A stretch of 64,000 nt of DNA from an uncultured Nannocystaceae bacterium (GTDB taxonomy: Bacteria > Myxococcota_A > Bradymonadia > UBA7976 > UBA1532), in the NCBI GenBank assembly GCA_964384025.1, contig CAYLJJ010000006.1, positions 4,492 to 68,491 on the forward strand, in the 5' to 3' direction. A program made the position numbers and the translations under genes. Under the pieces are notes generated by a model. It ran no database searches and was not told where the DNA came from. It saw only the letters and a list, made by a program, of their open reading frames with translations. Below are positions 1-35,977 of the stretch, one piece after another. The stretch's first letter is position 1. Each line of letters starts with the position of its first letter.

Positions 1-1591
1 CTGCCAACCAGGCGTTCCAGCGGAGTTGGATCTCTGTAACGGGATCGATGATGACTGTGATGGAGAGATCGATGAGGATCATGAAGATCTCCCCTGTGGT
101 GTTGGGCTTTGCCAACGCTTTAGCGCCTGTGCGGGGGGTGTCTTCTATGAGTGCCAACCTGCCCGTTCTACCGTCGCCCAGGATCTGCTTTGTGATGGTC
201 TAGATGAGGATTGTGACGGGGAGATCGACGAGGATTATCAGCCCCAAGGTTGTGGCCTGGGGGTCTGCCTCGCCTCAGCGCAACGCTCAGCCTGTGTTGA
301 TGGCCTGGAGCAGCCCTGTGTTCCAGGCTCACCCCTGTCGGATGTTGATTTAAGCTGTGACGGGATCGATGATGATTGTGATGGAGAGATCGACGAGGAG
401 ATCCCTCCCCAGGCAGATGAGCAATGTGATGGGATCGATGATGACTGTGATGGAGAGATCGATGAGGATGTTCTGGGCTCTCTGGGAGAGCGGCGATTGA
501 CAGAGGCCGCAGAGAACTCCAGTAACCCAGAGATCCTCCCTAGAGAGGGGGGCTTTGACCTCATTTGGGCTGATCGTCGTCCCAGCGAGAGCGGCGCCAC
601 CCATTCACGTATCTTCTTCTGCCGCCTGGGCACTGATGGAGAGAAGATCATCCCGGATAGAGCGATCTCTCAGATGGGAGGCAACCACTTTGAGCCCAGC
701 TTCGCGGCGGGTCCTGGAGGCTACTTAGTGGCTTGGCATCGCCTCGGTCAAACTCATGGAGAGGTTGTCTTTAAGCGCATCGCCCTAGACGGGCTCACGC
801 TCCAAGATGAGGTTCGCGTGGAAGCTCCTGGAGATGCCCGTAATGTTCAGGTCGCGGGGGATGAGCTGGGCTGGGCTCTGGCTTGGACAGGCAGCGGTCA
901 GGGCAAAGAGATCTATCTGCTCAGGATCGACGCCGAGGGACAGGCTCAGGGCGAACCCCAGGTGGTCAGCCAGCGCCCTGACGGCGTCCAAGGAGAGGCT
1001 TCTGTGGTGAGCCTGATTGCCCGAATCGGGGGCTGGGCCATCGCCTACAATGAGATGGAGTTGGAGCAGCACCATCTGAACATCTACTTCCAACTCTTGG
1101 ACTCAGAGGGACAACCAGAAGGAGCCCGAAGGGGGGTAGCTACAGGGCCAAGCGCCTCTAACTCCGCCAGCTTGACCAAGACCCAAGGGGGCTTTGCGCT
1201 GGCTTGGTACGACTTACGGGATGGCAACGCGGAGATCTACAGCGCCATCCTGGATGCTGAAGGAGGGTTGCTCCATGAGCATCGAATCACAGAGGAGCTA
1301 CGCAGCTCAACAGGTCCAGTGTTACGGCCTAGGGGTGATGGCTTTGGTCTGAGTTGGCAAAACCTCATCGATGCCAGCAACTACGAGATCTTCTTCCAGC
1401 ACCTGGATGCCCAGGGTGCCCCTTGGGGAGAGCCGCTTCGCCTCAGCCAAGGGGCGGGAGGCTCCTTCGCTCCTGTCTCAGCTTGGAACGGTCAGGAGTG
1501 GGGGGTCGCTTGGCACGATCTACGCGACTCAGAGAATCGCGAACTCTACTTCGCCCAAGGCCCAATGGGCTGTCCTGCGCGCAGACCGTGA
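1..1591 (+). CDS. Secreted Cys/Asp-rich repeat protein (MopE-type putative metal-binding CxDGxDDDCDGEIDE repeats) with C-terminal W-x-D-x-R-D-G-x-x-EIY beta-propeller-like repeats. The 5' end probably runs off the window; the first in-frame start in the track is TTG at 26.
   Basis: Translation shows four or more CDGIDDDCDGEIDE units, then repeated LAWxDLRDGNAEIY-like units. ORF is open to the window edge. Confidence 0.5.
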   Translation, partial: CQPGVPAELDLCNGIDDDCDGEIDEDHEDLPCGVGLCQRFSACAGGVFYECQPARSTVAQDLLCDGLDEDCDGEIDEDYQPQGCGLGVCLASAQRSACVDGLEQPCVPGSPLSDVDLSCDGIDDDCDGEIDEEIPPQADEQCDGIDDDCDGEIDEDVLGSLGERRLTEAAENSSNPEILPREGGFDLIWADRRPSESGATHSRIFFCRLGTDGEKIIPDRAISQMGGNHFEPSFAAGPGGYLVAWHRLGQTHGEVVFKRIALDGLTLQDEVRVEAPGDARNVQVAGDELGWALAWTGSGQGKEIYLLRIDAEGQAQGEPQVVSQRPDGVQGEASVVSLIARIGGWAIAYNEMELEQHHLNIYFQLLDSEGQPEGARRGVATGPSASNSASLTKTQGGFALAWYDLRDGNAEIYSAILDAEGGLLHEHRITEELRSSTGPVLRPRGDGFGLSWQNLIDASNYEIFFQHLDAQGAPWGEPLRLSQGAGGSFAPVSAWNGQEWGVAWHDLRDSENRELYFAQGPMGCPARRP

Positions 1592-6855: not shown

Positions 6856-7545
6856 ATGAAACTTACAGTGCTCTACCAAGATGAGTCGATCATCGCCATC
6901 CACAAGCCCTCAGGTCTGCTTGTCCACCGCAATGAGCATGCTCCCCACGCGGCTACCGTCCTCCAAAGTTTGCGGGATCAGATCGGCCAGCGCCTCTATC
7001 CAGTACATCGCCTGGATCGCCCCTGCTCTGGGCTCCTGCTCTTAGCTCTCAACTCCAAGACAGCCAGCGCCTTGGGGGCACAGCTTCGAGAGCGCAAGAT
7101 CATCAAGAGTTATCTGGCCTGGGTTCGGGGCTGGCCTCCCGACGAGGGGGAGATTCAGCGCCCACTCAGGGGGCGTCCCGCCTCTACCCGCTTTAAGACC
7201 CAACTCAGGGTGGAGCTGCCTGAGCCGGTAGGTCGTCACCCCAGCGCCCGTTATGCTCTTCTTAAACTGTGGCCCAAGAGCGGACGGCGGCATCAGCTCC
7301 GGCGTCATCTCGCGGGCCTCGCGTATCCCATCTTGGGAGACACCAGCCATGGAGATGGCCGCCACAACCGCTTCTTTAGAGGCCGCTTTGGCCTCAACCG
7401 TCTGATGCTTCACGCCCTTGAGTTAAGCTTTGAGCAGCCTCAGAGCGGAGAAATACTGAACTTAGAAGCTCCCGTTGATGGGGTCTGGCGGCGGGTTCGA
7501 GCTGAATGTCAGCCCTGGATTCAGGATCTCTTAGAGGAGATCTGA
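6856..7545 (+). CDS. RluA-family pseudouridine synthase (TruC-like)
   Basis: IAIHKPSGLLVH and catalytic HRLDRPCSGLLLLA motif. ATG at 6856 verified. Confidence 0.8.
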   Translation: MKLTVLYQDESIIAIHKPSGLLVHRNEHAPHAATVLQSLRDQIGQRLYPVHRLDRPCSGLLLLALNSKTASALGAQLRERKIIKSYLAWVRGWPPDEGEIQRPLRGRPASTRFKTQLRVELPEPVGRHPSARYALLKLWPKSGRRHQLRRHLAGLAYPILGDTSHGDGRHNRFFRGRFGLNRLMLHALELSFEQPQSGEILNLEAPVDGVWRRVRAECQPWIQDLLEEI

Positions 7546-8444
7546 GTCACCCGAAGGGTGTTGCCTTCACGAACCCAAGATTCAACGACAAATTGAGTCG
7601 TGGAGGTCAACTTCGCAGGGAAGCTCTGGAAGGCTTCGATAAGGCCCCTAGAGGAGAGAAAGGAAAGTTCAATGTTCAGTTCGTTTGGAAGCTGATTTGG
7701 GTCTTCTGGTCTGGCTCTGAAAGGCTTATCCTTGATCGGTTTTGCTTTCCGAAGCCGCGTTCTCGTAGTCTGCCAAATCTTCCATGCTTGACCGGCTGAA
7801 TGACACACGATGCTAAAGCGCGCAGGGGGTTCTACTACTCTGGTTTTTGCCGGTGGGGCGATAGAAGGCTTGAGCTCTTGCATTTTCACCGGTTCTTGAG
7901 GTGGGGCCTTTAACAATCTCTCTCGAGCGACGCGGATCGCATGAAGCTTACGACCAAATCCTGGCCGCGCAGCTTGGCCTCGGCGAGCCTGATGCCTCGC
8001 TCCTCCTCTATGCCCCTGATGCCTCGCTCCTCCTCTATGCCCCTGATGCTTCGCCCCTCCTCTATGCCCCTGATGCCTCGTTCCTCCTCTATGCCCCTGA
8101 TGTTGCGGCCTCGCTCGAGGGAGGTTGCCGATCTTTTGATGGTAGATCACAAGGCGGCGCAGCCACCCCAACTCCAAGCTGAGCTGACGGCCGGTGATAT
8201 CAGGGTCTTTATAGAGGCGGTTCTCTAACCAGACACCTACCTCTGTCAGAGCTGCTCTCTCGTTCTCTCGGTTCGCAAAGGCAGAGCCAAACATCTTGAT
8301 CAGCAGCTCAAGGGCAGCGATGGGATCATCAAGGTTACGTTTGATCTGGGTGAGCGCTTCGCTGAGGTAATGTGCATGGTTCTTCGTCGCCAGATGACTG
8401 GAGACCCCCAGCAGCTCTCGGTGAGTTGAGCTGTCCAGATGCAT
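7521..8444 (-). CDS. Terminal gene of the type III-like operon. Hypothetical protein with helical N-terminus and four HQGHRGG(A/T)(R/K) tandem repeats. The track ORF extends to 8528, but the ATG at 8444 sits 1 nt after the upstream stop.
   Basis: Minus strand reads ...TAA a ATG CAT CTG GAC (stop at 8448..8446, ATG at 8444..8442). A 27-nt in-frame tandem repeat encodes HQGHRGGxR four times. Confidence 0.5.
   Translation of the reverse strand: MHLDSSTHRELLGVSSHLATKNHAHYLSEALTQIKRNLDDPIAALELLIKMFGSAFANRENERAALTEVGVWLENRLYKDPDITGRQLSLELGWLRRLVIYHQKIGNLPRARPQHQGHRGGTRHQGHRGGAKHQGHRGGARHQGHRGGARHQARRGQAARPGFGRKLHAIRVARERLLKAPPQEPVKMQELKPSIAPPAKTRVVEPPARFSIVCHSAGQAWKIWQTTRTRLRKAKPIKDKPFRARPEDPNQLPNELNIELSFLSSRGLIEAFQSFPAKLTSTTQFVVESWVREGNTLRVTQISSKRS
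7988..8110. repeat. 27-nt in-frame tandem repeat (about 4.5 copies) inside CDS 7521..8444
   Basis: Repeated unit gatgcctcgctcctcctctatgcccct visible on the + strand. No spacers, so not CRISPR. Confidence 0.8.
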
Positions 8445-8445
8445 A

Positions 8446-9423
8446 TTACCAGCCCCCGATTTTGTGGATTTGAAGGAGCTTTTCTTCACCTGCTTTGTGA
8501 TAATCCGGCGAACCGGTGAAAGCAACACGCCAAGCTAGAAGGTCAAGAGCAGCCTGACGCCGAGCGCTGTCTTTCAGGTTTATCGTGGTTCGAGATGGTT
8601 TGATGCGTCCAAAACCCAGCGGTTTGCCTGCTCCTACCTTTAGACTGCTCCCCGGTTTGACGCCCAAGGCTGAGAGCAGCCCTCCAAGCTCAGCCCTGTT
8701 GAAGTTACTGAAGCGCACATAGCCCACGAGCCTTGAACCGATGGGAATCACCTCTACCGGCTGCTTACTCCCCGGGGCGGAGGGCCCTCGCCCTCCATGA
8801 AATTTGCGACCATGGATCTCAGTGAGCGTCAGCTTCTGCCCTGTGTGATTGCTCTCATAGTCGCCGCAGTGGTGTAGACGCGGTCCAAACTGGGCTGGCA
8901 TCTCTTCCAATCCAGCCTGAGCATCAGTCACAAAATCATCGAAGATGACTCGGCTGCGATGACCCATCAACCCAAAGAGAGCGCAAGCGGAGCAGATCCT
9001 GGGTGGACCATTACCCTGAGCACGACAAGCTTTGAAAAGATCTTGGGCTTTGAGTCGTGGGGAGAGTTCAACATCCCAGCGGTTATATGTGTTGGAGGTG
9101 ATTTTTCTCTGACTGCCTCCCATCGGCGCTTCAGGGAGGCAGGAGCAGGTGATCGCCTCATACCGGGCGCGTACCATCCCCTTAAAGCTGGAGCCAGGGA
9201 TGATAAGCTGTTCCCCTCGCCGCATAGCGCTCCGAGCGACCCTTCCATTGATGAGAATCTTGGCGCCAGAGCCAACATGTATAGCTTGCTCTGCGGTGTA
9301 GGTGAGCTGCATACGCCCAAAGAAGTGGCCCTTGCAGCGACGATCAAAGCGAACCTGCTCCCGCTTGGCTCGATTGACCCGAGTCGGTAAAGGCGTAAAA
9401 AGGTAACCTTGCTCAGAAGACAT
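8446..9423 (-). CDS. cas7: Cas7-family RAMP protein (Csm3/Cmr4/Cmr6-like), type III effector subunit
   Basis: IIPGSSFKGMVRA motif, CSACALFG zinc-finger-like motif, C-terminal G-rich loop VGAGKPLGFGRIKP. Start ATG overlaps the upstream stop (TGATG). Confidence 0.75.
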   Translation of the reverse strand: MSSEQGYLFTPLPTRVNRAKREQVRFDRRCKGHFFGRMQLTYTAEQAIHVGSGAKILINGRVARSAMRRGEQLIIPGSSFKGMVRARYEAITCSCLPEAPMGGSQRKITSNTYNRWDVELSPRLKAQDLFKACRAQGNGPPRICSACALFGLMGHRSRVIFDDFVTDAQAGLEEMPAQFGPRLHHCGDYESNHTGQKLTLTEIHGRKFHGGRGPSAPGSKQPVEVIPIGSRLVGYVRFSNFNRAELGGLLSALGVKPGSSLKVGAGKPLGFGRIKPSRTTINLKDSARRQAALDLLAWRVAFTGSPDYHKAGEEKLLQIHKIGGW

Positions 9424-10370
9424 CAGAGCAGCTCCTGGAGGCTCACCTCTGCCCGCCTTAATAGCTCAGCAGCACGCTCCCCCTGGAAGTCAAAGCGCTG
9501 GCCAAAGCCTCGGGTTCGATGCTCCTCGGCCTTAGGTTTAAGCAGATCCACTTCAGGCAGCAGCTTATAGCGTGCAGCTTCATCAGCCTTGATCAGGCGA
9601 GCAACGCCCTGAGGAGAAGAAGCTCTCCCTGACTGCTCAATGACGATCTGCTCCACCTTGGCCCGCACCACCCCAAAACCTCGAGTCTTAGTAGAGCCCA
9701 ACTGAACAAAGCCATCATCGAGATCTTGAAGGGCGATGGCGAGCAAGCCAAGCTGCCAAGCTTGAAAGTTGCTCAGCGCGATATCTCCATAAAAGCTACA
9801 GCCTGTGGGGATCATCTCCAGATCATAGAGCACTCCCCTCCGCACAGAACCCGCTACTCGATCGATCGCGATGCCGTTGCGCACCTCGGTTCGGTTTGCC
9901 TGTAGGTAGTTTTGATCTGGAGCCCTGGCACCAGCCAGGAAGGGGAAAAGGTCACGCACTGAAGCCCGGCCCCGAAGCCCAGTAGAGCCAAAGGTACGAC
10001 AGGCAAGACAGTGCAGAGCGTGGATCTTGCTGGTCTTGGCCTTTAGGTTGGAGTGCTGGTTACATCCCCTTTCATGATCAAGAGGATCACAGGCAGGTTC
10101 ACCCGCGAAGCCTTTGATCCTCTGGCCTCGAAGCATCGCCTCGCCAGCCGAACGAATGACTCCCTTGAAGCTGGAGCCTGGAATATAGACCGTCAGCCCC
10201 TGAAAGTCTGGATCTACAGCCTTGTTGGCGAAGAGCGCATAGCGAGTCCGTACACAGGAGAGATCAGAGCGTGAAGGATCCAAACCTGTATCACCTGCTC
10301 GGATCAGGAGAGGGGCAGCGGTCGTAATTTTCAGCCGGATGCTGGTCCGGTTGAGGCTCTTCTTAAACAT
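9423..10370 (-). CDS. cas7: Cas7-family RAMP protein (paralog of 8446..9423)
   Basis: YIPGSSFKGVIRS, CLACRTFGSTG, RNGIAIDR, LGSTKTRGFGVV. The internal ATG at 10370 shares one nt with the upstream stop (TGATG). The track start at 10427 is GTG. Confidence 0.75.
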   Translation of the reverse strand: MFKKSLNRTSIRLKITTAAPLLIRAGDTGLDPSRSDLSCVRTRYALFANKAVDPDFQGLTVYIPGSSFKGVIRSAGEAMLRGQRIKGFAGEPACDPLDHERGCNQHSNLKAKTSKIHALHCLACRTFGSTGLRGRASVRDLFPFLAGARAPDQNYLQANRTEVRNGIAIDRVAGSVRRGVLYDLEMIPTGCSFYGDIALSNFQAWQLGLLAIALQDLDDGFVQLGSTKTRGFGVVRAKVEQIVIEQSGRASSPQGVARLIKADEAARYKLLPEVDLLKPKAEEHRTRGFGQRFDFQGERAAELLRRAEVSLQELL

Positions 10371-11179
10371 CAGCTCGCTCCCTCCACCATCCGTTGGCGC
10401 AAAGCTTCCATCCAGCGTTCCCGACACTGGGTGAACAGATGGTCTGCATCCTTGGGCAGCTCACCGCCTGTCTCTAATAAACGCTTGGGTTCAAAGTCCG
10501 TCACGGTGTCCCACTCAATGCCAACCCGTCCAAGTCCCCGCGAAGTAAAGCCGCCGATGGCCGTAAACCCCTCGGCGATCTGCTCAAAGCCGATCACCAA
10601 CACTCCAAGCTCCCAATCCTCTAAATTGTCAGCGAAGAGCTCCAAGCCAAAGCCGGTGCCTGCTGAGACGACTTGGAAATCATATTTGTTGGCGCCATAC
10701 ACCTTGCCCAGGTCACGATCGATGGCGACACCATCTCGAAGCTCAATAGGTGGTTTACGAGCACGGCTCTCTAAGCAAAGGGCATCACTGATGCGTACAT
10801 GGCTCGCCACCACTTGACTTCCAAACAATCGACACGCGGTGCAGTGAGCTGCTTGTAGAGCCGCCTCTCGTCCTCCAGACCCATGTTGACCACAGCCCTT
10901 TCCCAAGGGATCGCAAGCCCAGAGTCGATCTACAGCACCCTCACCTGGATCAACCGCTCGGAGCAGAGACTCGATGGTTGAGCGCAAGACCCCCTTGATG
11001 GAGGCCCCAGGCAGAAATGGAAAACCTTGGGCGTCACGTAAGACAGGGAGATCGACTGCGTCAATGTGGCTACCAGCGCCACCCCCGATCCGGAGCCCTG
11101 TATGACAGCGCACCGTAGCGAGCATGCGTACTCGGCGCTTCAGTATATGAAAGTCGTTGATCGATCCATGCCCAGTCAC
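10370..11179 (-). CDS. csm3: Csm3/Cmr4-like Cas7 backbone RAMP protein
   Basis: FLPGASIKGVLRS, CTACRLFGS, RDGVAIDRDLG, IGGFTSRGLGRVGIEW. The GTG start overlaps the upstream TGA (GTGA). Confidence 0.75.
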   Translation of the reverse strand: MTGHGSINDFHILKRRVRMLATVRCHTGLRIGGGAGSHIDAVDLPVLRDAQGFPFLPGASIKGVLRSTIESLLRAVDPGEGAVDRLWACDPLGKGCGQHGSGGREAALQAAHCTACRLFGSQVVASHVRISDALCLESRARKPPIELRDGVAIDRDLGKVYGANKYDFQVVSAGTGFGLELFADNLEDWELGVLVIGFEQIAEGFTAIGGFTSRGLGRVGIEWDTVTDFEPKRLLETGGELPKDADHLFTQCRERWMEALRQRMVEGAS

Positions 11180-13388: not shown

Positions 13389-14903
13389 TCAACTCCCTGC
13401 ACGTTGGGTTTGCTCCTCAATCCGAGCGATCTCCAACTCCGCGTGGGTGGGCAGCGCTCTCTCAAGCCGTCGAGCGTCGGTCCAAGACTCTCCAAAGAAG
13501 CTCTGCCATTTCAGGCTGCGCGCGACCTGATAGCGCAGTTGATTTAAAGCTTCTGCTTGGGTGATCCCTTGCTGTCTCTCATACAGCAGTCGAGCGAGAA
13601 GCGCGCGCTGGCTTGAGGGCACCCCAAGATCAAGGAGGCGTCGGGCTCGTTCGAGCGCCTGGCTCAGCGAGGGTCTCTCTCCGCTGCCTGCGATCTCAAG
13701 TCGATGATCAGCCATGACATTTCCACCCCCCGCGACCAACTCCTCGCCGCTGCGCATAAACGCGAAATCCAGCGCTGAGCGAGCCTTACCTGAACCGCAG
13801 ATCTGCTTAGCGGAGATCTCAAGAGCGTGGGCAAAGCCGATCAGCGCTGAAGCAGGGTAGCTGGCTGGGCCGATGACCAGCCCGATACCGATACCGATGC
13901 CCTCCAAGGCCTCAGCAAGCTTAGGGGGAGGCTGCCAGTGTCTGGATAGATCCTGTGTTCCTTTATGGAGAGCCTGAGCGAGGCGCTCCATGCGCTCAAA
14001 GACCCCTTCAGGCTGTACAAAGAGCCGAATATCATCTCCACCGACAACAGGCGCGACAAAATCCCCTTTGTCCAGATCGCAGGTCGCGGCGTCGAGAGCG
14101 TGCTTAAACAGGAGACTCACCGCTTGGCTGGCGAGGGCTCGATCTTCTATCGTCGGTAGAGAGGCAAAAAAGCGTCCCATCTCGTTTCCATCACCAGAGA
14201 TCACCGCAATTTTGTTGAGTTGAGATGAGAGTTCAGAGAGCGTGGCCTTGCCTCCAGCTTGACTCCTCGCCTCAGTTTGTCCCTGCTCAAGGATCGGCAA
14301 GCAGGTCTTACAGACCTCATATCGCTCGCCAGCGTGGCAAAAGGATCGTGTGGTGTTCCTTGGAGCAGCTTTACAAGCGACACAGCGCTGATTGGGTAGG
14401 ACGACCTTGGAGAGCAGCTGAGATCGAGGTGGCATCGCCTCATCTTTGGCGATGCTCATTCTTGCCCGAAGAGCTGTGAGCGCTCGCGCTTCAGCCTCCT
14501 GCCCTGCTTCTCCACTACAGGGAACCGCCTCAACCGCTAGACTCTCACCGCCTGTCAGCTTCGCGTATCTCTGGGGTAAGCTCTTGAGGAGCCTGGAGCG
14601 ATCTTGGGCAGAGATCCAAAATAGACCTCTGCCACCCCCATTAAAGATGGCACCCCTTTCCTCTTGTGCCTCTTTATCAAATTTCTTAACGATATCGCTG
14701 GCCCCACGCAGATAGGGCAACATTCGGCTTCGTGTTACAAAGCTTTGAATTCCATTTGCATCATATTGGAGCAGCCACCCATCTGCTCCAACTGCAGCCC
14801 GTGCTTTGGCAACAGATCTCTGGATATTTCCAGGATTAAACCCATCTAGATAGCTCAAGAACCCTCCTCCATGCTTGCCACAACCAAGAATAGAATGGAC
14901 CAA
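13389..14903 (-). CDS. cas10: Cas10-like large subunit lacking an HD domain (Palm1 GIQxF, treble-clef Zn finger, Palm2 with GDGN and GGDD)
   Basis: LLQYDANGIQSFV (Csm1-type GIQxF), CVACK...CHAGERYEVCKTC, IAVISGDGNEMGRFF, VVGGDDIRLFV. Protein is only 504 aa and the start is TTG in the track. Confidence 0.7.
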   Translation of the reverse strand: MVHSILGCGKHGGGFLSYLDGFNPGNIQRSVAKARAAVGADGWLLQYDANGIQSFVTRSRMLPYLRGASDIVKKFDKEAQEERGAIFNGGGRGLFWISAQDRSRLLKSLPQRYAKLTGGESLAVEAVPCSGEAGQEAEARALTALRARMSIAKDEAMPPRSQLLSKVVLPNQRCVACKAAPRNTTRSFCHAGERYEVCKTCLPILEQGQTEARSQAGGKATLSELSSQLNKIAVISGDGNEMGRFFASLPTIEDRALASQAVSLLFKHALDAATCDLDKGDFVAPVVGGDDIRLFVQPEGVFERMERLAQALHKGTQDLSRHWQPPPKLAEALEGIGIGIGLVIGPASYPASALIGFAHALEISAKQICGSGKARSALDFAFMRSGEELVAGGGNVMADHRLEIAGSGERPSLSQALERARRLLDLGVPSSQRALLARLLYERQQGITQAEALNQLRYQVARSLKWQSFFGESWTDARRLERALPTHAELEIARIEEQTQRAGS

Positions 14904-15244
14904 ATCCTACCATCTTCAATTACATAACATTCATATCAACACCAAATCTAAAGTGATGATATGACCCCAATCGGAGTATTCAAAATACCAGAAAACCTAA
15001 TTCAGAAAGCCTGCAATTTGCTCCGATTGTCAGGATGACAGACACCCCTACATTCCTCAACCACCATCTGAAAAAAATGGAAAGTCGATACTCTCCGACC
15101 AACAATCTAAGATCCTGAGGAGGAACTGTGGGCTATGCTGAGTAGGGCACTTTAGGGTTTGAGTCCAAACAACAGGGTTTCTTTTTTCATTTTCAGCTTG
15201 ACGGAGGAGCAAAATTTCAATAAACAGATCCAACGCTGTCAACG
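14904..15244 (-). promoter_or_regulatory. AT-rich 340-nt non-coding leader and presumed promoter region of the type III-like operon
   Basis: Locally low GC relative to the flanks, no ORF, and directly upstream of the first coupled gene. No sigma-54 or ECF consensus found by eye. Confidence 0.3.
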
Positions 15245-15316
15245 GGCTGTTGGCTCAATGGTAGAGCAGCGGACTTTTAATCCGACGGTTCTGGGTTCGA
15301 GCCCCAGGCGGCCCAT
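15245..15316 (+). tRNA. tRNA-Lys (anticodon TTT)
   Basis: Acceptor GGGCTGT/GCGGCCC, D-arm GCTCAATGGTAGAGC, anticodon loop CTTTTAA, T-arm CTGGGTTCGAGCCCCAG. Confidence 0.9.
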
Positions 15317-15320
15317 TTGG

Positions 15321-15395
15321 TCCCCATCGTCTAGTCAGGTCCAGGACACCGGCCTTTCAAGCCGGCAACACGGGTTCAAAGCCCGTTGGGGATAC
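15321..15395 (+). tRNA. tRNA-Glu (anticodon TTC)
   Basis: Near-identical architecture to E. coli tRNA-Glu: GTCCCCATCGTCTAG...CCGGCCTTTCAAGCCGG...GGGTTCAAAGCCCGTTGGGGATA. Confidence 0.9.
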
Positions 15396-22825: not shown

Positions 22826-23275
22826 ATGAAAGCAGTCCACGTAATCGCAGCAGTTGGCGCGGTTTTGATCATCGCGATAACAGCTTGGTACTTTTATATG
22901 CAATATTCCGAGGTGGATACTGAGCCTCAGGCCAAGACCCGAGGACTCCAGATCAACGGGCGAGTGCTTAAGTTGGATCATCGGCTTAAGCAGCGGCAGG
23001 CGGAGATCAGTCGCAATGCAAAAGCTCAGCTTCAACCTAAGGCTGGAGCGAAAGATCAGAAGGTTGCAGTTCCCGAAGTCAAAGCTCCTCAGCCCCCTGT
23101 AAAGGCTGAGGTCAAGGACAAGGCGCCTCAGCCCCCTGTAAAGGCTGAGGGCAAGGGCAAGACGCCTCAGCCCCCTGTAAAGGCTGAGGGCAAGGGCAAG
23201 ACGCCTCAGCCCCCTGTAAAGGCTGAGGGCAAGACCCCACCCAAGGTTAAACCTGAGCCCGCCCCCAAGCCCTAA
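22826..23275 (+). CDS. Membrane-anchored protein with a tandem PQPPVKAEGKGKT repeat tail
   Basis: N-terminal TM helix AVHVIAAVGAVLIIAITAWYFY. 39-nt tandem repeats at 23081..23240. Confidence 0.5.
   Translation: MKAVHVIAAVGAVLIIAITAWYFYMQYSEVDTEPQAKTRGLQINGRVLKLDHRLKQRQAEISRNAKAQLQPKAGAKDQKVAVPEVKAPQPPVKAEVKDKAPQPPVKAEGKGKTPQPPVKAEGKGKTPQPPVKAEGKTPPKVKPEPAPKP
23081..23240. repeat. 39-nt in-frame tandem repeats (about 4 copies) encoding (A/T)PQPPVKAEGKGK
   Basis: Directly visible: aaggctgagggcaagggcaagacgcctcagccccctgta repeated. Confidence 0.8.
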
Positions 23276-35353: not shown

Positions 35354-35977
35354 ATGAAGCCTGTAAAACAGAAAGCTCCAGAATATCCACAGCTCACCAC
35401 TTTCCATTTAGAGCGCCGAGAACTGCTGACTCTCTTCGCCAAGGGAGCTGCTTTCCTTGGGGTCTCTTCCAGTCTGGGCTGTGTCCTCCAACCTGAAGAG
35501 AGCGACGCGGGCGGCGCTGGGCCAGGGGTAGATGGGGGAGGGGTTCCTCCTCATGAGCCTCCCATCAGCGGCGAAGTTGATAGCCATCAGTATCCCGATA
35601 CAGGTGAGCCTCCCATGGGCGGCGGCATCGAGCCCTATCCATATCCAGACGCAGGTGGAGAACCTGAGCATCAATATCCAGATATGGGTGAGCCTCCCAT
35701 CGCGGGAGCAGAGCCTCTGCCTCTCGACGCGGGCGGCACTGATCCCTGCGAACTTCCTGAGCCAGGTGAGCCTCCTATGGCAGGGGATATCGCTCCCTAT
35801 GAGCCCCCCGATGCGGGTGAGCCTCCTATGGCAGGGGATATCGCTCCCTATGAGCCCCCCGATGCGGGTGAGCCTCCTGTAGCGGGCGGCGTTATCGATC
35901 CCCATGTATATCCCGACGCTGGCCTTCCTGACGCAGGTGAGCCCCCGATAGCGGGTGGAGATATGCCTTCCGAGTAA
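35354..35977 (+). CDS. Tat-signal secreted Pro/Tyr/Asp-rich tandem-repeat protein
   Basis: RRELLTLFAKGAAFLGV Tat-like leader. Repeats HQYPD, YPYPDAG, YEPPDAGEPPMAGDIAP (two copies), VYPDAG. Confidence 0.5.
   Translation: MKPVKQKAPEYPQLTTFHLERRELLTLFAKGAAFLGVSSSLGCVLQPEESDAGGAGPGVDGGGVPPHEPPISGEVDSHQYPDTGEPPMGGGIEPYPYPDAGGEPEHQYPDMGEPPIAGAEPLPLDAGGTDPCELPEPGEPPMAGDIAPYEPPDAGEPPMAGDIAPYEPPDAGEPPVAGGVIDPHVYPDAGLPDAGEPPIAGGDMPSE

What the first reader, a model, noticed from the sequence alone, without database searches (positions are those of the whole stretch)
13389..14903. Cas10-like protein without HD nuclease but with intact cyclase GGDD motif
The 504-aa protein begins almost directly with the Palm1 region (LLQYDANGIQSFV, matching the Csm1 D-x-x-G-I-Q-x-F-I motif). 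It then has a four-Cys treble-clef element (CVACK...CHAGERYEVCKTC), the Palm2 entry motif ISGDGNEMGRFF and VVGGDDIRLFV, followed by about 170 aa of helical tail (D4-like). No N-terminal HD domain can fit. Under the established Cas10 paradigm this predicts cyclic-oligoadenylate synthesis without ssDNase activity, yet no cOA-sensing effector is encoded nearby.
Basis: partly seen in the sequence, partly recalled or inferred. Interest (0 to 1): 0.7.

Follow-up and report, generated by a model that had tools for sequence, protein, structure and literature searches.

The report
HD-less Cas10 of type III-D CRISPR
This gene encodes a genuine but ordinary Cas10 signalling subunit of a type III-D CRISPR complex in a marine myxobacterium; such Cas10s normally lack the HD nuclease, and the only unusual thing is that this copy sits without a CRISPR array, a Cas6 or a signal-sensing effector nearby.

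Summary
The ORF at 13389-14903 is real and lies on the minus strand. It is a true Cas10. Pfam, PADLOC and PDB profile searches all place it there, and an AlphaFold model (pLDDT 82) matches the Synechocystis type III-Dv Cas10 best (TM 0.71). It has Palm1, a four-Cys zinc finger, Palm2 with GGDD, and a helical C-terminal domain of about 95 aa. No HD domain is present, and an in-frame TAG two codons upstream rules out an extension.

It is the first gene of a six-gene operon: cas10, a cas7-cas5(csx10)-cas11 fusion, three cas7 genes and an unknown gene. This operon is conserved in at least 12 Myxococcota loci. There it sits beside SAVED-CHAT, SAVED-M48, SAVED-nuclease, Csx3 or TIR genes, CBASS cyclases, Cas6/Csb2 and CRISPR arrays.

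HD-less, cyclase-positive Cas10 is the published norm for type III-D (HD in 3% of loci). Effector-less loci of this kind are also documented (133 loci).

About 75 kb of this contig holds no array, Cas6, CARF or SAVED gene. Yet the window Cas10 keeps every conserved catalytic residue.

The most likely reading is a cyclic-oligoadenylate (cOA) synthase that relies on parts encoded elsewhere. This is a new member of a known kind, of low-to-moderate interest.

The parts
13389..14903 (-). cas10: HD-less large subunit. 504 aa from the first TTG; the probable true start is TTG at 14858, giving about 489 aa.
   Evidence: ORF. Pfam PF22335. PADLOC Cas10, E 1e-24. PDB profile hits to Csm1 and III-Dv Cas10. 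AF2 pLDDT 82, pTM 0.83. Foldseek top hit 8s9t_C, TM 0.71.
14439..14780 (-). Palm1 domain (about aa 42-155), with the YDANGIQ motif (aa 47-53) and GGRG (aa 90-93).
   Evidence: Secondary structure of the model. HMMER aligns this stretch to T. onnurineus Csm1 residues 234-437. Y47, D48, I52, Q53 and G90-G93 are invariant in the ten closest homologues; among 56 representatives GGRG is kept in 46 and the Palm1 motif varies.
14259..14396 (-). Reduced D2/linker (about aa 170-215): a four-Cys zinc-ribbon element (C174, C177, C198, C201).
   Evidence: The four Cys are invariant in 55 of 56 family representatives. Beta-hairpin 185-198 plus helix 201-214 in the model.
13686..14222 (-). Palm2 domain (about aa 228-406), with the metal-binding D238 (GDGN) and the GGDD cyclase motif (aa 288-291, nt 14031-14042).
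   Evidence: Pfam PF22335 covers aa 232-368. GGDD translation checked. GGDD in 55 of 56 and DGN in 53 of 56 representatives.
13395..13676 (-). C-terminal helical D4/CTD (about aa 410-503; Cas11-like helix bundle) with the invariant RYQVARS motif (aa 457-463).
   Evidence: Helices 413-503 in the model. Invariant columns. An analogous Cas11-like CTD is described for III-D2 Cas10 (PMC13294483).
11176..13392 (-). cas7-cas5(csx10)-cas11 fusion (738 aa). Its start overlaps the cas10 stop.
   Evidence: NCBIfam Csx7 (aa 24-209) and Csx10 (aa 231-595). PADLOC Cas5_IIId E 3e-23, Csm3 E 7e-22, Csm2/'CAS-III-D effector_SS' at aa 631-731. The tail is homologous to a separate 137-139-aa gene in L004 and L006, E 1e-16. 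Weak PDB hit to 8s9t_A 'Cas7-Cas5-Cas11'.
10370..11179 (-). cas7 (Csx7/Csm3-like, 269 aa) with the conserved D40/D43-L-P...D49 loop. It is the best candidate for the RNA-cleaving subunit.
   Evidence: NCBIfam TIGR02581 E 5.8e-47, above its cutoff. PADLOC Csm3 E 1.4e-48. Invariant Asp residues across 9 loci.
9423..10427 (-). cas7 (Csx7-like; 334-aa ORF, with a probable start at the conserved Met20, nt 10370).
   Evidence: TIGR02581 E 1.5e-32. Alignment across 9 loci starts at M20.
8446..9423 (-). Third stand-alone cas7 (325 aa; TIGR03986/gRAMP-like RAMP).
   Evidence: Pfam RAMPs E 8e-10. TIGR03986 E 4.6e-21. PADLOC Csm3/Cas7_IIId.
7521..8441 (-). Conserved sixth gene of the module (about 306 aa; ORF extends to 8528), of unknown family. 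It carries an in-frame 27-nt x4.3 repeat (7988-8102; HQGHRGGAR).
   Evidence: Homologous to the gene in the same position in 8 other loci (tblastn E 2e-36 to 2e-12). No Pfam, NCBIfam, PADLOC or PDB match. Tandem repeat.
14904..15243 (-). Non-coding leader between cas10 and tRNA-Lys. It holds a sigma-70-like site (14983-14956) and the SD sequence GGAGGAGGG before the alternative start.
   Evidence: Sequence. The promoter scan is not above chance. tRNAs at 15244-15395.

Best explanation
The gene encodes the Cas10 large subunit of a type III-D-variant, RNA-guided, RNA-targeting complex from a marine Myxococcota chromosome. The complex is Cas10, a Cas7-Cas5-Cas11 fusion, three Cas7 proteins and one unknown subunit.

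This Cas10 is a cyclase-only version. It has Palm1, a zinc ribbon, Palm2 with GGDD and a helical CTD, and no HD nuclease.

Inferred mechanism: when the crRNA-loaded complex binds a complementary foreign transcript, the Palm1/Palm2 pocket polymerises ATP into a cyclic oligoadenylate. The product is probably cA3, because relatives pair with SAVED-CHAT. That signal activates SAVED- or CARF-type effectors. No ssDNA cleavage by Cas10 is expected.

In this genome the operon is a solo effector module. The crRNA source, the Cas6/Csb2 processing enzyme and the signal-sensing effector are not in the roughly 75 kb examined. They must be supplied from elsewhere in the genome if the module is active.

Shown: identity, architecture, absence of HD, conservation of catalytic residues, operon membership, and the effector associations of relatives. 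Inferred: cOA synthesis, the ring size, and in-trans use of other parts.
For: Identity:
- Pfam palm2; PADLOC Cas10, E 1e-24.
- Family profile against PDB: Csm1 at E 5e-10 and III-Dv Cas10 at E 5e-9.
- AF2 model, pLDDT 82; Foldseek top hit 8s9t_C at TM 0.71/0.65, followed by dozens of Csm1 structures.

Catalytic integrity:
- GGDD, DGN, the four Cys and the Palm1 motifs are invariant in the ten closest homologues.
- The window protein deviates at 1 of 47 columns that are at least 90% conserved (L252I), which is the family median.

Operon:
- The ORFs abut or overlap. The neighbours are Csx10, Csx7 and Csm2-like.
- The same gene order occurs in L001, L004, L006, L011-L013, L015, L017 and L020, with truncated copies in L002, L014 and L016.

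Signalling role, from relatives:
- SAVED-CHAT, SAVED-M48 or SAVED-PD(D/E)xK sits next to the module in 10 loci.
- Csx3 and a TIR protein sit next to it in L020.
- The L006 SAVED-CHAT matches PDB 8tl0 at E 1e-31. I take 8tl0 to be the Haliangium cA3-activated SAVED-CHAT, from memory; the preprint does not give the code.
- CRISPR arrays occur in L004, L006, L012, L014 and L015.

Precedents:
- The HD-less III-Dv Cas10 makes cOA on target RNA binding (PMC11026444).
- HD is present in 3% of III-D loci, and 133 effector-less cyclase-positive loci are explained by in-trans signalling (PMC11229360).
- III-G loci lack arrays and are thought to borrow crRNAs in trans (PMC12669027).
Against: - No biochemical data exist for this clade.
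- The window and about 11 kb of extra contig lack any array, Cas6, Csb2, CARF or SAVED gene.
- No repeat-like handle sequence occurs above chance.
- All 11 relatives with adequate flanks keep signalling genes adjacent, so this locus is the exception and could be stranded.
- The rest of the genome, including about 45 kb of the same contig, could not be inspected.
- The ring size is inferred only from the effectors of homologues that share 32-41% identity.
Confidence: 0.62

Rival explanations
1. Stranded module. The operon is a recently orphaned type III-D effector cassette. It lost its array, Cas6 and SAVED effector, for instance through rearrangement beside the tRNA-Lys/tRNA-Glu genes. It currently has no guide and no output, and its genes are intact but awaiting decay.
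For: No array, Cas6 or effector in about 75 kb. Every relative with adequate flanks keeps signalling genes adjacent. tRNA genes directly flank cas10 only in this locus. The sixth gene carries an expanding low-complexity repeat that homologues lack.
Against: All six ORFs are intact and abut or overlap. Cas10 deviates from family-conserved columns no more than the median member. The Cas7 proteins keep their invariant residues. Identical sequence was recovered from several independent samples. GC content matches the chromosome.
Confidence: 0.25
2. The Cas10 makes a different signal, such as SAM-AMP as in type III-D2 and B. fragilis III-B, or a linear oligoadenylate, rather than a cyclic oligoadenylate.
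For: The III-D2 Cas10 has the same compact layout (Palm1 at the N-terminus, no HD, Cas11-like CTD) and makes SAM-AMP and SAM-AMP2 (PMC13294483). No sensor in the window constrains the product.
Against: No CorA gene was seen in the window or in the homologous loci, going by Pfam tables of called genes and targeted scans, not an exhaustive search. The relatives carry SAVED, Csx3 and TIR genes, which belong to cyclic-oligonucleotide signalling. The motif here is GGDD, not the GGDE of III-D2. The structurally closest solved Cas10 (III-Dv) makes cOA.
Confidence: 0.06
3. This is an RNA-cleavage-only system. The complex degrades target transcripts through Cas7, and Cas10 serves mainly as a structural cap, so no downstream effector is needed.
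For: One Cas7 keeps the Csm3-type Asp loop. No effector is present locally.
Against: The cyclase residues are strictly conserved in this copy and in 55 of 56 family representatives. Subtypes that have given up signalling show replaced catalytic residues (PMC12669027).
Confidence: 0.06
4. It is not a Cas10 at all, but a GGDEF diguanylate cyclase, an mCpol or another stand-alone nucleotidyltransferase.
For: NCBIfam's Cas10/Csm1 model scores only 17 bits against a cutoff of 170. One NCBI homologue is annotated 'hypothetical protein'.
Against: No GGDEF or other family matches at E<=0.1. The whole-length fold matches Cas10 structures. The gene is translationally coupled to a Cas7-Cas5-Cas11 gene and conserved with it in every locus. 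Arrays lie adjacent in relatives.
Confidence: 0.01

Closest known systems
Synechocystis sp. PCC 6803 type III-Dv Cas10 (PDB 8s9t chain C; PMC11026444)
   Same: It is the best structural match (Foldseek E 3.6e-15, TM 0.71/0.65) and a profile hit at E 5e-9. It is a short Cas10 (575 aa) with a truncated, non-functional HD region, keeps GGDD, and has been shown to make cOA. Its partner is a Cas7-Cas5-Cas11 fusion, as here.
   Different: Only about 16% identity. The window protein is shorter still (about 490 aa) and has no N-terminal remnant at all. The window operon has three separate Cas7 genes instead of Cas7-2x plus Cas7-insertion. An unrelated sixth gene replaces a recognisable Csx19. The Synechocystis effector is the CARF protein Csx1, whereas relatives of this locus use SAVED effectors.
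Type III-D2 Cas10 of Gammaproteobacteria bacterium HyVt-522 (PMC13294483)
   Same: The Cas10 begins directly with Palm1, has no HD, has a linker, carries the catalytic motif in Palm2, and has a Cas11-like five-helix CTD.
   Different: III-D2 has GGDE, makes SAM-AMP and SAM-AMP2, and works with CorA plus a toxin-antitoxin module. It uses Cas7x3 and Cas7-5 fusions. Here the motif is GGDD, no CorA is present, and relatives carry SAVED effectors.
Haliangium ochraceum type III-B/CBASS hybrid with SAVED-CHAT and PCaspase (bioRxiv 10.1101/2023.06.23.546230)
   Same: It is also from Myxococcota. Relatives of the window operon carry SAVED-CHAT (E 1e-31 to PDB 8tl0), a TPR-CHAT protease, an ECF sigma factor, a Ser/Thr kinase, Csb2-type Cas6 and CBASS cyclases. 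That matches the accessory set described there, which is driven by cA3.
   Different: The Haliangium system uses a Cmr1-6 (III-B) complex, whereas this is a III-D-type module with a minimal Cas10. The window locus itself has none of these accessory genes.
Thermococcus onnurineus Csm1 (type III-A Cas10; PDB 6o75, 6mur, 4uw2)
   Same: Palm1, zinc finger and Palm2 align (E 5e-10). The DxxGIQxF and GDxxxxGxFF motifs and the GGDD position are shared.
   Different: Csm1 is about 780 aa, with an N-terminal HD nuclease of about 220 aa and a larger D2 domain. The fold match covers only about 40% of the Csm1 chain (TMt about 0.40).
Effector-less or array-less type III loci (133 loci in PMC11229360; subtype III-G in PMC12669027)
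   Same: They have a nuclease-deficient, cyclase-positive Cas10 with no recognisable local effector, or effector modules with no array that are thought to borrow crRNAs in trans.
   Different: III-G has an inactivated palm and an active HD, which is the opposite of this protein. This locus lacks array, Cas6, adaptation genes and effector all at once.

Membership tests
Cas10 (type III large subunit) | Two palm (cyclase/polymerase) domains forming a pseudo-dimer, with GGDD in Palm2. | tested here: met
   Pfam PF22335; PADLOC Cas10 over aa 44-386; AF2 model; whole-length Foldseek matches to Cas10 chains; GGDD at aa 288-291.
Cas10 (type III large subunit) | Four-Cys zinc-binding element between the palm domains, and a helical C-terminal D4 domain. 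| tested here: met
   C174, C177, C198 and C201 are kept in 55 of 56 representatives. Helices 413-503 in the model.
Cas10 (type III large subunit) | N-terminal HD nuclease domain (present in canonical III-A/III-B Cas10, optional across the family). | tested here: not met
   Only about 41 aa (about 26 from the probable start) precede Palm1. An in-frame TAG lies two codons upstream, and no HD ORF lies in the leader. This is typical of III-D, where HD occurs in 3% of loci.
Cas10 (type III large subunit) | Encoded with Cas5 and Cas7 RAMP subunits and a Cas11 small subunit. | tested here: met
   Csx10/Cas5_IIId, Csx7/Csm3 and Csm2-like domains lie in the next four genes. The gene order is conserved in 12 loci.
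Cas10 (type III large subunit) | Target-RNA-dependent synthesis of a cyclic oligoadenylate. | not testable with these tools
   Inferred from intact catalytic residues and from SAVED, Csx3 and TIR neighbours in relatives.
Type III-D CRISPR-Cas (including the III-Dv variant) | Csx10-type Cas5. | tested here: met
   TIGR02674 Csx10, E 6.9e-21, below the curated cutoff. PADLOC Cas5_IIId, E 3.3e-23.
Type III-D CRISPR-Cas (including the III-Dv variant) | Multiple distinct Cas7 (Csx7/Csm3) genes or fusions; in III-Dv, a Cas7-Cas5-Cas11 fusion. | tested here: met
   Four Cas7 domains are present, one of them fused to Cas5 and Cas11. Weak hit to 8s9t_A.
Type III-D CRISPR-Cas (including the III-Dv variant) | Csx19 signature protein. 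| tested here: not met
   The sixth gene family matches nothing in Pfam, NCBIfam, PADLOC or PDB. A single-sequence AF2 model was unusable (pLDDT 47). It may be a divergent functional counterpart.
Type III-D CRISPR-Cas (including the III-Dv variant) | Associated CRISPR array and a crRNA-processing enzyme. | tested here: not met
   None in the window or in the extra 11 kb of contig. Present in relatives: arrays in L004, L006, L012, L014 and L015; Cas6 in L001 and L006; Csb2 in L004.
GGDEF diguanylate cyclase / mCpol stand-alone polymerase | A single GGDEF or palm domain, not embedded in a cas operon. | tested here: not met
   No such Pfam hit at E<=0.1. Two palm domains are present, and the gene is coupled to RAMP genes.
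SAM-AMP-producing Cas10 (III-D2 / B. fragilis III-B) | Co-occurrence with the CorA effector (plus NrN or SAM-AMP lyase, or a TA module); GGDE in III-D2. | tested here: not met
   No CorA gene was seen in the window or in the homologous loci, going by Pfam tables of called genes and targeted scans, not an exhaustive search. The motif is GGDD.

The most novel reading that the evidence does not exclude
The intact, fully conserved six-gene module has been kept on a myxobacterial chromosome without its own array, Cas6, adaptation genes or effector because it has a new job. One possibility is that it is a dedicated in-trans signal generator feeding CBASS-type SAVED effectors elsewhere in the genome, making a CRISPR-to-CBASS relay. 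Another is that it is an RNA sensor loaded with non-CRISPR guide RNAs. The unknown, repeat-bearing sixth subunit might play a part in either case.
Probability: 0.12. Interest if true: 0.6.

Novelty: new member of a known kind. Interest (0 to 1): 0.25.

Why it matters
The main value is as a correction. A Cas10 without HD but with GGDD is not an anomaly. It is the standard form of the type III-D large subunit, and this one belongs to a Myxococcota clade of very compact Cas10s (about 450-545 aa).

NCBIfam's Cas10/Csm1 model scores far below its cutoff, one NCBI homologue is annotated 'hypothetical protein', and JGI split the gene. Recognising the clade therefore improves annotation.

The clade gives further natural examples of type III modules wired to CBASS parts (CD-NTase, SAVED-CHAT, SAVED-M48, SAVED-nuclease).

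The window locus is a clean example of a solo effector module. If a complete genome were available, it could be used to test in-trans sharing of crRNAs and cOA effectors.

Tried and rejected
- **CRISPR array.** I looked with TRF, a direct-repeat finder, my own k-mer spacing scan, Rfam and handle-motif searches. The only hits were protein-coding repeats and chance-level matches.
- **Effector remnants.** tblastn with 15 accessory proteins from relatives found nothing in the window.
- **Walking the 124.5-kb contig.** Only 5.7 kb before the window and 5 kb after it were reachable. One look-up failed. About 45 kb remains unseen.
- **The sixth gene.** Profile searches against PDB and Pfam were empty. 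The word-indexed homologue search returned only a 97%-identical variant. The single-sequence model was too poor for a fold search (pLDDT 47).
- **Possible pseudogenisation.** The JGI gene calls (303-aa cas10, fragmented cas7 genes) suggested it, but the DNA is 100% identical to the window, so this is a gene-calling artefact.
- **Promoter scan.** Not above the shuffled expectation.
- **Subtypes III-H and III-I.** Both have reduced Cas10s, but III-H has an inactivated palm and III-I lacks the N-terminal palm domain. Here both palm domains and the catalytic residues are intact, so I rejected them.
Full report
**Observation.** The ORF at 13389-14903 exists, but on the minus strand (504 aa, TTG start). 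An in-frame TAG lies two codons upstream of the TTG. The 340-bp leader runs to tRNA-Lys and tRNA-Glu (15244-15395, plus strand) without any relevant ORF. An HD-encoding extension is therefore impossible.

The true start is probably the TTG at codon 16 (nt 14858). It follows GGAGGAGGG, and starting there gives an N-terminus that matches the homologues.

**Identity.** Several independent searches agree.
- Pfam finds only PF22335, the Cas10/Cmr2 second palm domain (E 3.9e-8). No GGDEF or other family matches at E<=0.1.
- PADLOC's Cas10 models match aa 44-386 at E 1e-24.
- A profile of the protein and nine homologues hits T. onnurineus Csm1 (E 5e-10, covering Palm1 and the zinc finger). It also hits the Synechocystis type III-Dv Cas10 (E 5e-9).
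- An AlphaFold2 model built on that alignment is confident (pLDDT 82, pTM 0.83).
- Foldseek against the PDB ranks the III-Dv Cas10 (8s9t_C) first, with TM 0.71/0.65. Dozens of Csm1 chains follow.

The model gives these domains: Palm1 at about aa 42-155, a reduced D2 consisting of a four-Cys zinc ribbon at about aa 170-215, Palm2 at about aa 228-406, and a helical CTD at about aa 410-503. The helical tail is thus about 95 aa, not about 170 aa.

**Family.** The word-indexed search found only nine homologues, at 32-40% identity and 472-541 aa. The exhaustive profile search found 2,722 proteins at E<=1e-3. These include 55 full-length cluster representatives of 440-545 aa and then the 550-650-aa III-D-type Cas10s.

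In 56 full-length representatives, GGDD is kept in 55, the four Cys in 55 and the DGN metal site in 53. The window protein departs from columns that are at least 90% conserved at just one of 47 positions (L252I). That is the family median. I see no sign of decay.

**Context in the window.** cas10 is the first gene of a tightly packed minus-strand operon.
- A 738-aa Cas7-Csx10(Cas5)-Cas11 fusion. Its tail is homologous to a separate 137-139-aa gene in other loci.
- Three stand-alone Cas7 genes. One of them keeps a Csm3-type Asp loop.
- A conserved sixth gene with no detectable family.

This is a type III-D-style effector module, closest to the III-Dv layout.

The host is a marine Myxococcota or Bradymonadia-like bacterium, judged from DnaB. 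The surroundings are ordinary chromosome: ribosomal proteins, DnaB, PRPP synthetase and MutL. GC content is unremarkable.

**Relatives.** The same module occurs in Sorangium complete genomes and in Kofleriaceae, Polyangiales and other Myxococcota MAGs. In those loci it is flanked by signalling and CRISPR parts:
- SAVED-CHAT in L001, L002, L006, L011, L014 and L016. The L006 protein matches PDB 8tl0 at E 1e-31.
- SAVED-M48 peptidase in L006, L015 and L017.
- A Cap4-like SAVED-PD(D/E)xK nuclease in L004.
- Csx3 and a TIR protein in L020.
- CD-NTase cyclases in L001, L012, L015 and L017.
- Cas6 or Csb2 in L001, L004 and L006.
- CRISPR arrays in L004, L006, L012, L014 and L015, with repeats ending in ATTGA[AG][AG]C.

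This mirrors the Haliangium type III-B/CBASS hybrid, in which cA3 activates SAVED-CHAT. All 11 relatives with adequate flanks have cyclic-oligonucleotide signalling genes next to the module.

**What is missing here.** Four lines of evidence show that the accessory genes are absent.
- Precomputed Pfam calls cover window 3.4-64 kb, 5.7 kb of the contig before the window and 5 kb after it. The two ORFs below 3.4 kb give no sign of such genes by inspection. There is no CARF, SAVED, Cas6, Cas1 or Cas2.
- tblastn with the relatives' accessory proteins finds nothing.
- Four different array searches are negative.
- Repeat-handle motifs occur only at chance level.

It extends to the array and the processing enzyme as well.

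**Comparison with the literature.** The features that looked paradoxical are textbook for this subtype.
- The truncated Synechocystis III-Dv Cas10 was shown to make cOA and activate Csx1 (PMC11026444).
- The III-D2 Cas10 starts directly at Palm1 (PMC13294483).
- 133 loci with a nuclease-deficient, cyclase-positive Cas10 lack any effector. Such loci are 2.57 times more likely to share a genome with another type III locus, which suggests in-trans signalling.
- Array-less III-G loci are thought to borrow crRNAs (PMC12669027).

**Mechanism and rivals.** The most likely reading (about 0.6) is a cyclase-only Cas10 in an RNA-guided complex. On binding target RNA it would make a cyclic oligoadenylate, probably cA3 given the SAVED-CHAT partners of relatives. 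In this genome it would rely on a guide, a processing enzyme and an effector encoded elsewhere.

The main rival (about 0.25) is a recently stranded, still-intact cassette. Against it stand the intact, closely packed ORFs, the full conservation of catalytic residues, and recovery of the identical sequence from several samples.

A different product such as SAM-AMP is unlikely (about 0.06). No CorA gene was seen, the motif is GGDD, and the relatives have SAVED neighbours.

A purely RNA-cleaving role with a structural Cas10 (about 0.06) does not fit the conserved cyclase site.

A non-Cas10 identity is excluded for practical purposes.

**Verdict.** This is a new member of a known kind: a compact Myxococcota type III-D Cas10. 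The residual interest lies in three things. The module stands alone. The conserved sixth subunit is unknown. The clade is repeatedly embedded among CBASS components.

Noticed in passing
window 7521-8441 (-), repeat at 7988-8102: The conserved sixth gene of the module matches no known family. It carries an in-frame 27-nt tandem repeat (x4.3, HQGHRGGAR) that is absent from homologues. A 97%-identical variant on an ENA scaffold is 8 aa shorter (298 vs 306 aa), which suggests that repeat copy number varies between populations.
   Followed up: partly
L001 5125-9800; L012 12960-13652; L015 and L017 8129-9875 and 17410-18234: In relatives the type III-D module is physically embedded among CBASS parts. 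A CD-NTase cyclase lies on one side and a SAVED-M48 or SAVED-CHAT effector on the other; L001 also has a ThiF/E1-like gene. These are further natural CRISPR/CBASS hybrids like the Haliangium III-B case, here with a III-D module.
   Followed up: partly
L003/L021 (100% identical to window 3389-24300): The public JGI gene calls truncate cas10 to 303 aa and fragment two cas7 genes (147 aa, 173 aa and so on), although the DNA has intact ORFs with TTG or GTG starts. NCBI annotates a homologue (P0006) as a hypothetical protein. The clade is under-annotated.
   Followed up: yes
L024 1-3156 (about 5 kb beyond the window end; contig Ga0115649_1000349): A 1223-aa NACHT-HEAT STAND NTPase lies next to mutL. 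It could be an Avs-like defence protein. I did not examine it further.
   Followed up: no
window 15244-15395 (+): tRNA-Lys(UUU) and tRNA-Glu(UUC) sit 340 bp upstream of cas10, where relatives have a SAVED effector gene. None of five relatives checked has a tRNA near the module. The site might mark a rearrangement or integration boundary.
   Followed up: partly
window 26-1591 (+), 23080-23233 and 35550-35900: There are several protein-coding tandem repeats: a Cys-rich CDGxDDDCDGExDE repeat protein, a 39-nt repeat and 51-nt Pro/Glu-rich repeats. One of them triggers naive CRISPR-spacing scans, but it lies in ORF 35354-35977 (207 aa, unannotated), and its 51-nt period and degenerate copies do not look like a CRISPR array.
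   Followed up: partly
L020 11651-14473: One relative has a Csx3-domain protein (ring-nuclease family) and a TIR-domain protein in place of SAVED-CHAT. The clade may therefore not be tied to a single cOA species.
   Followed up: no
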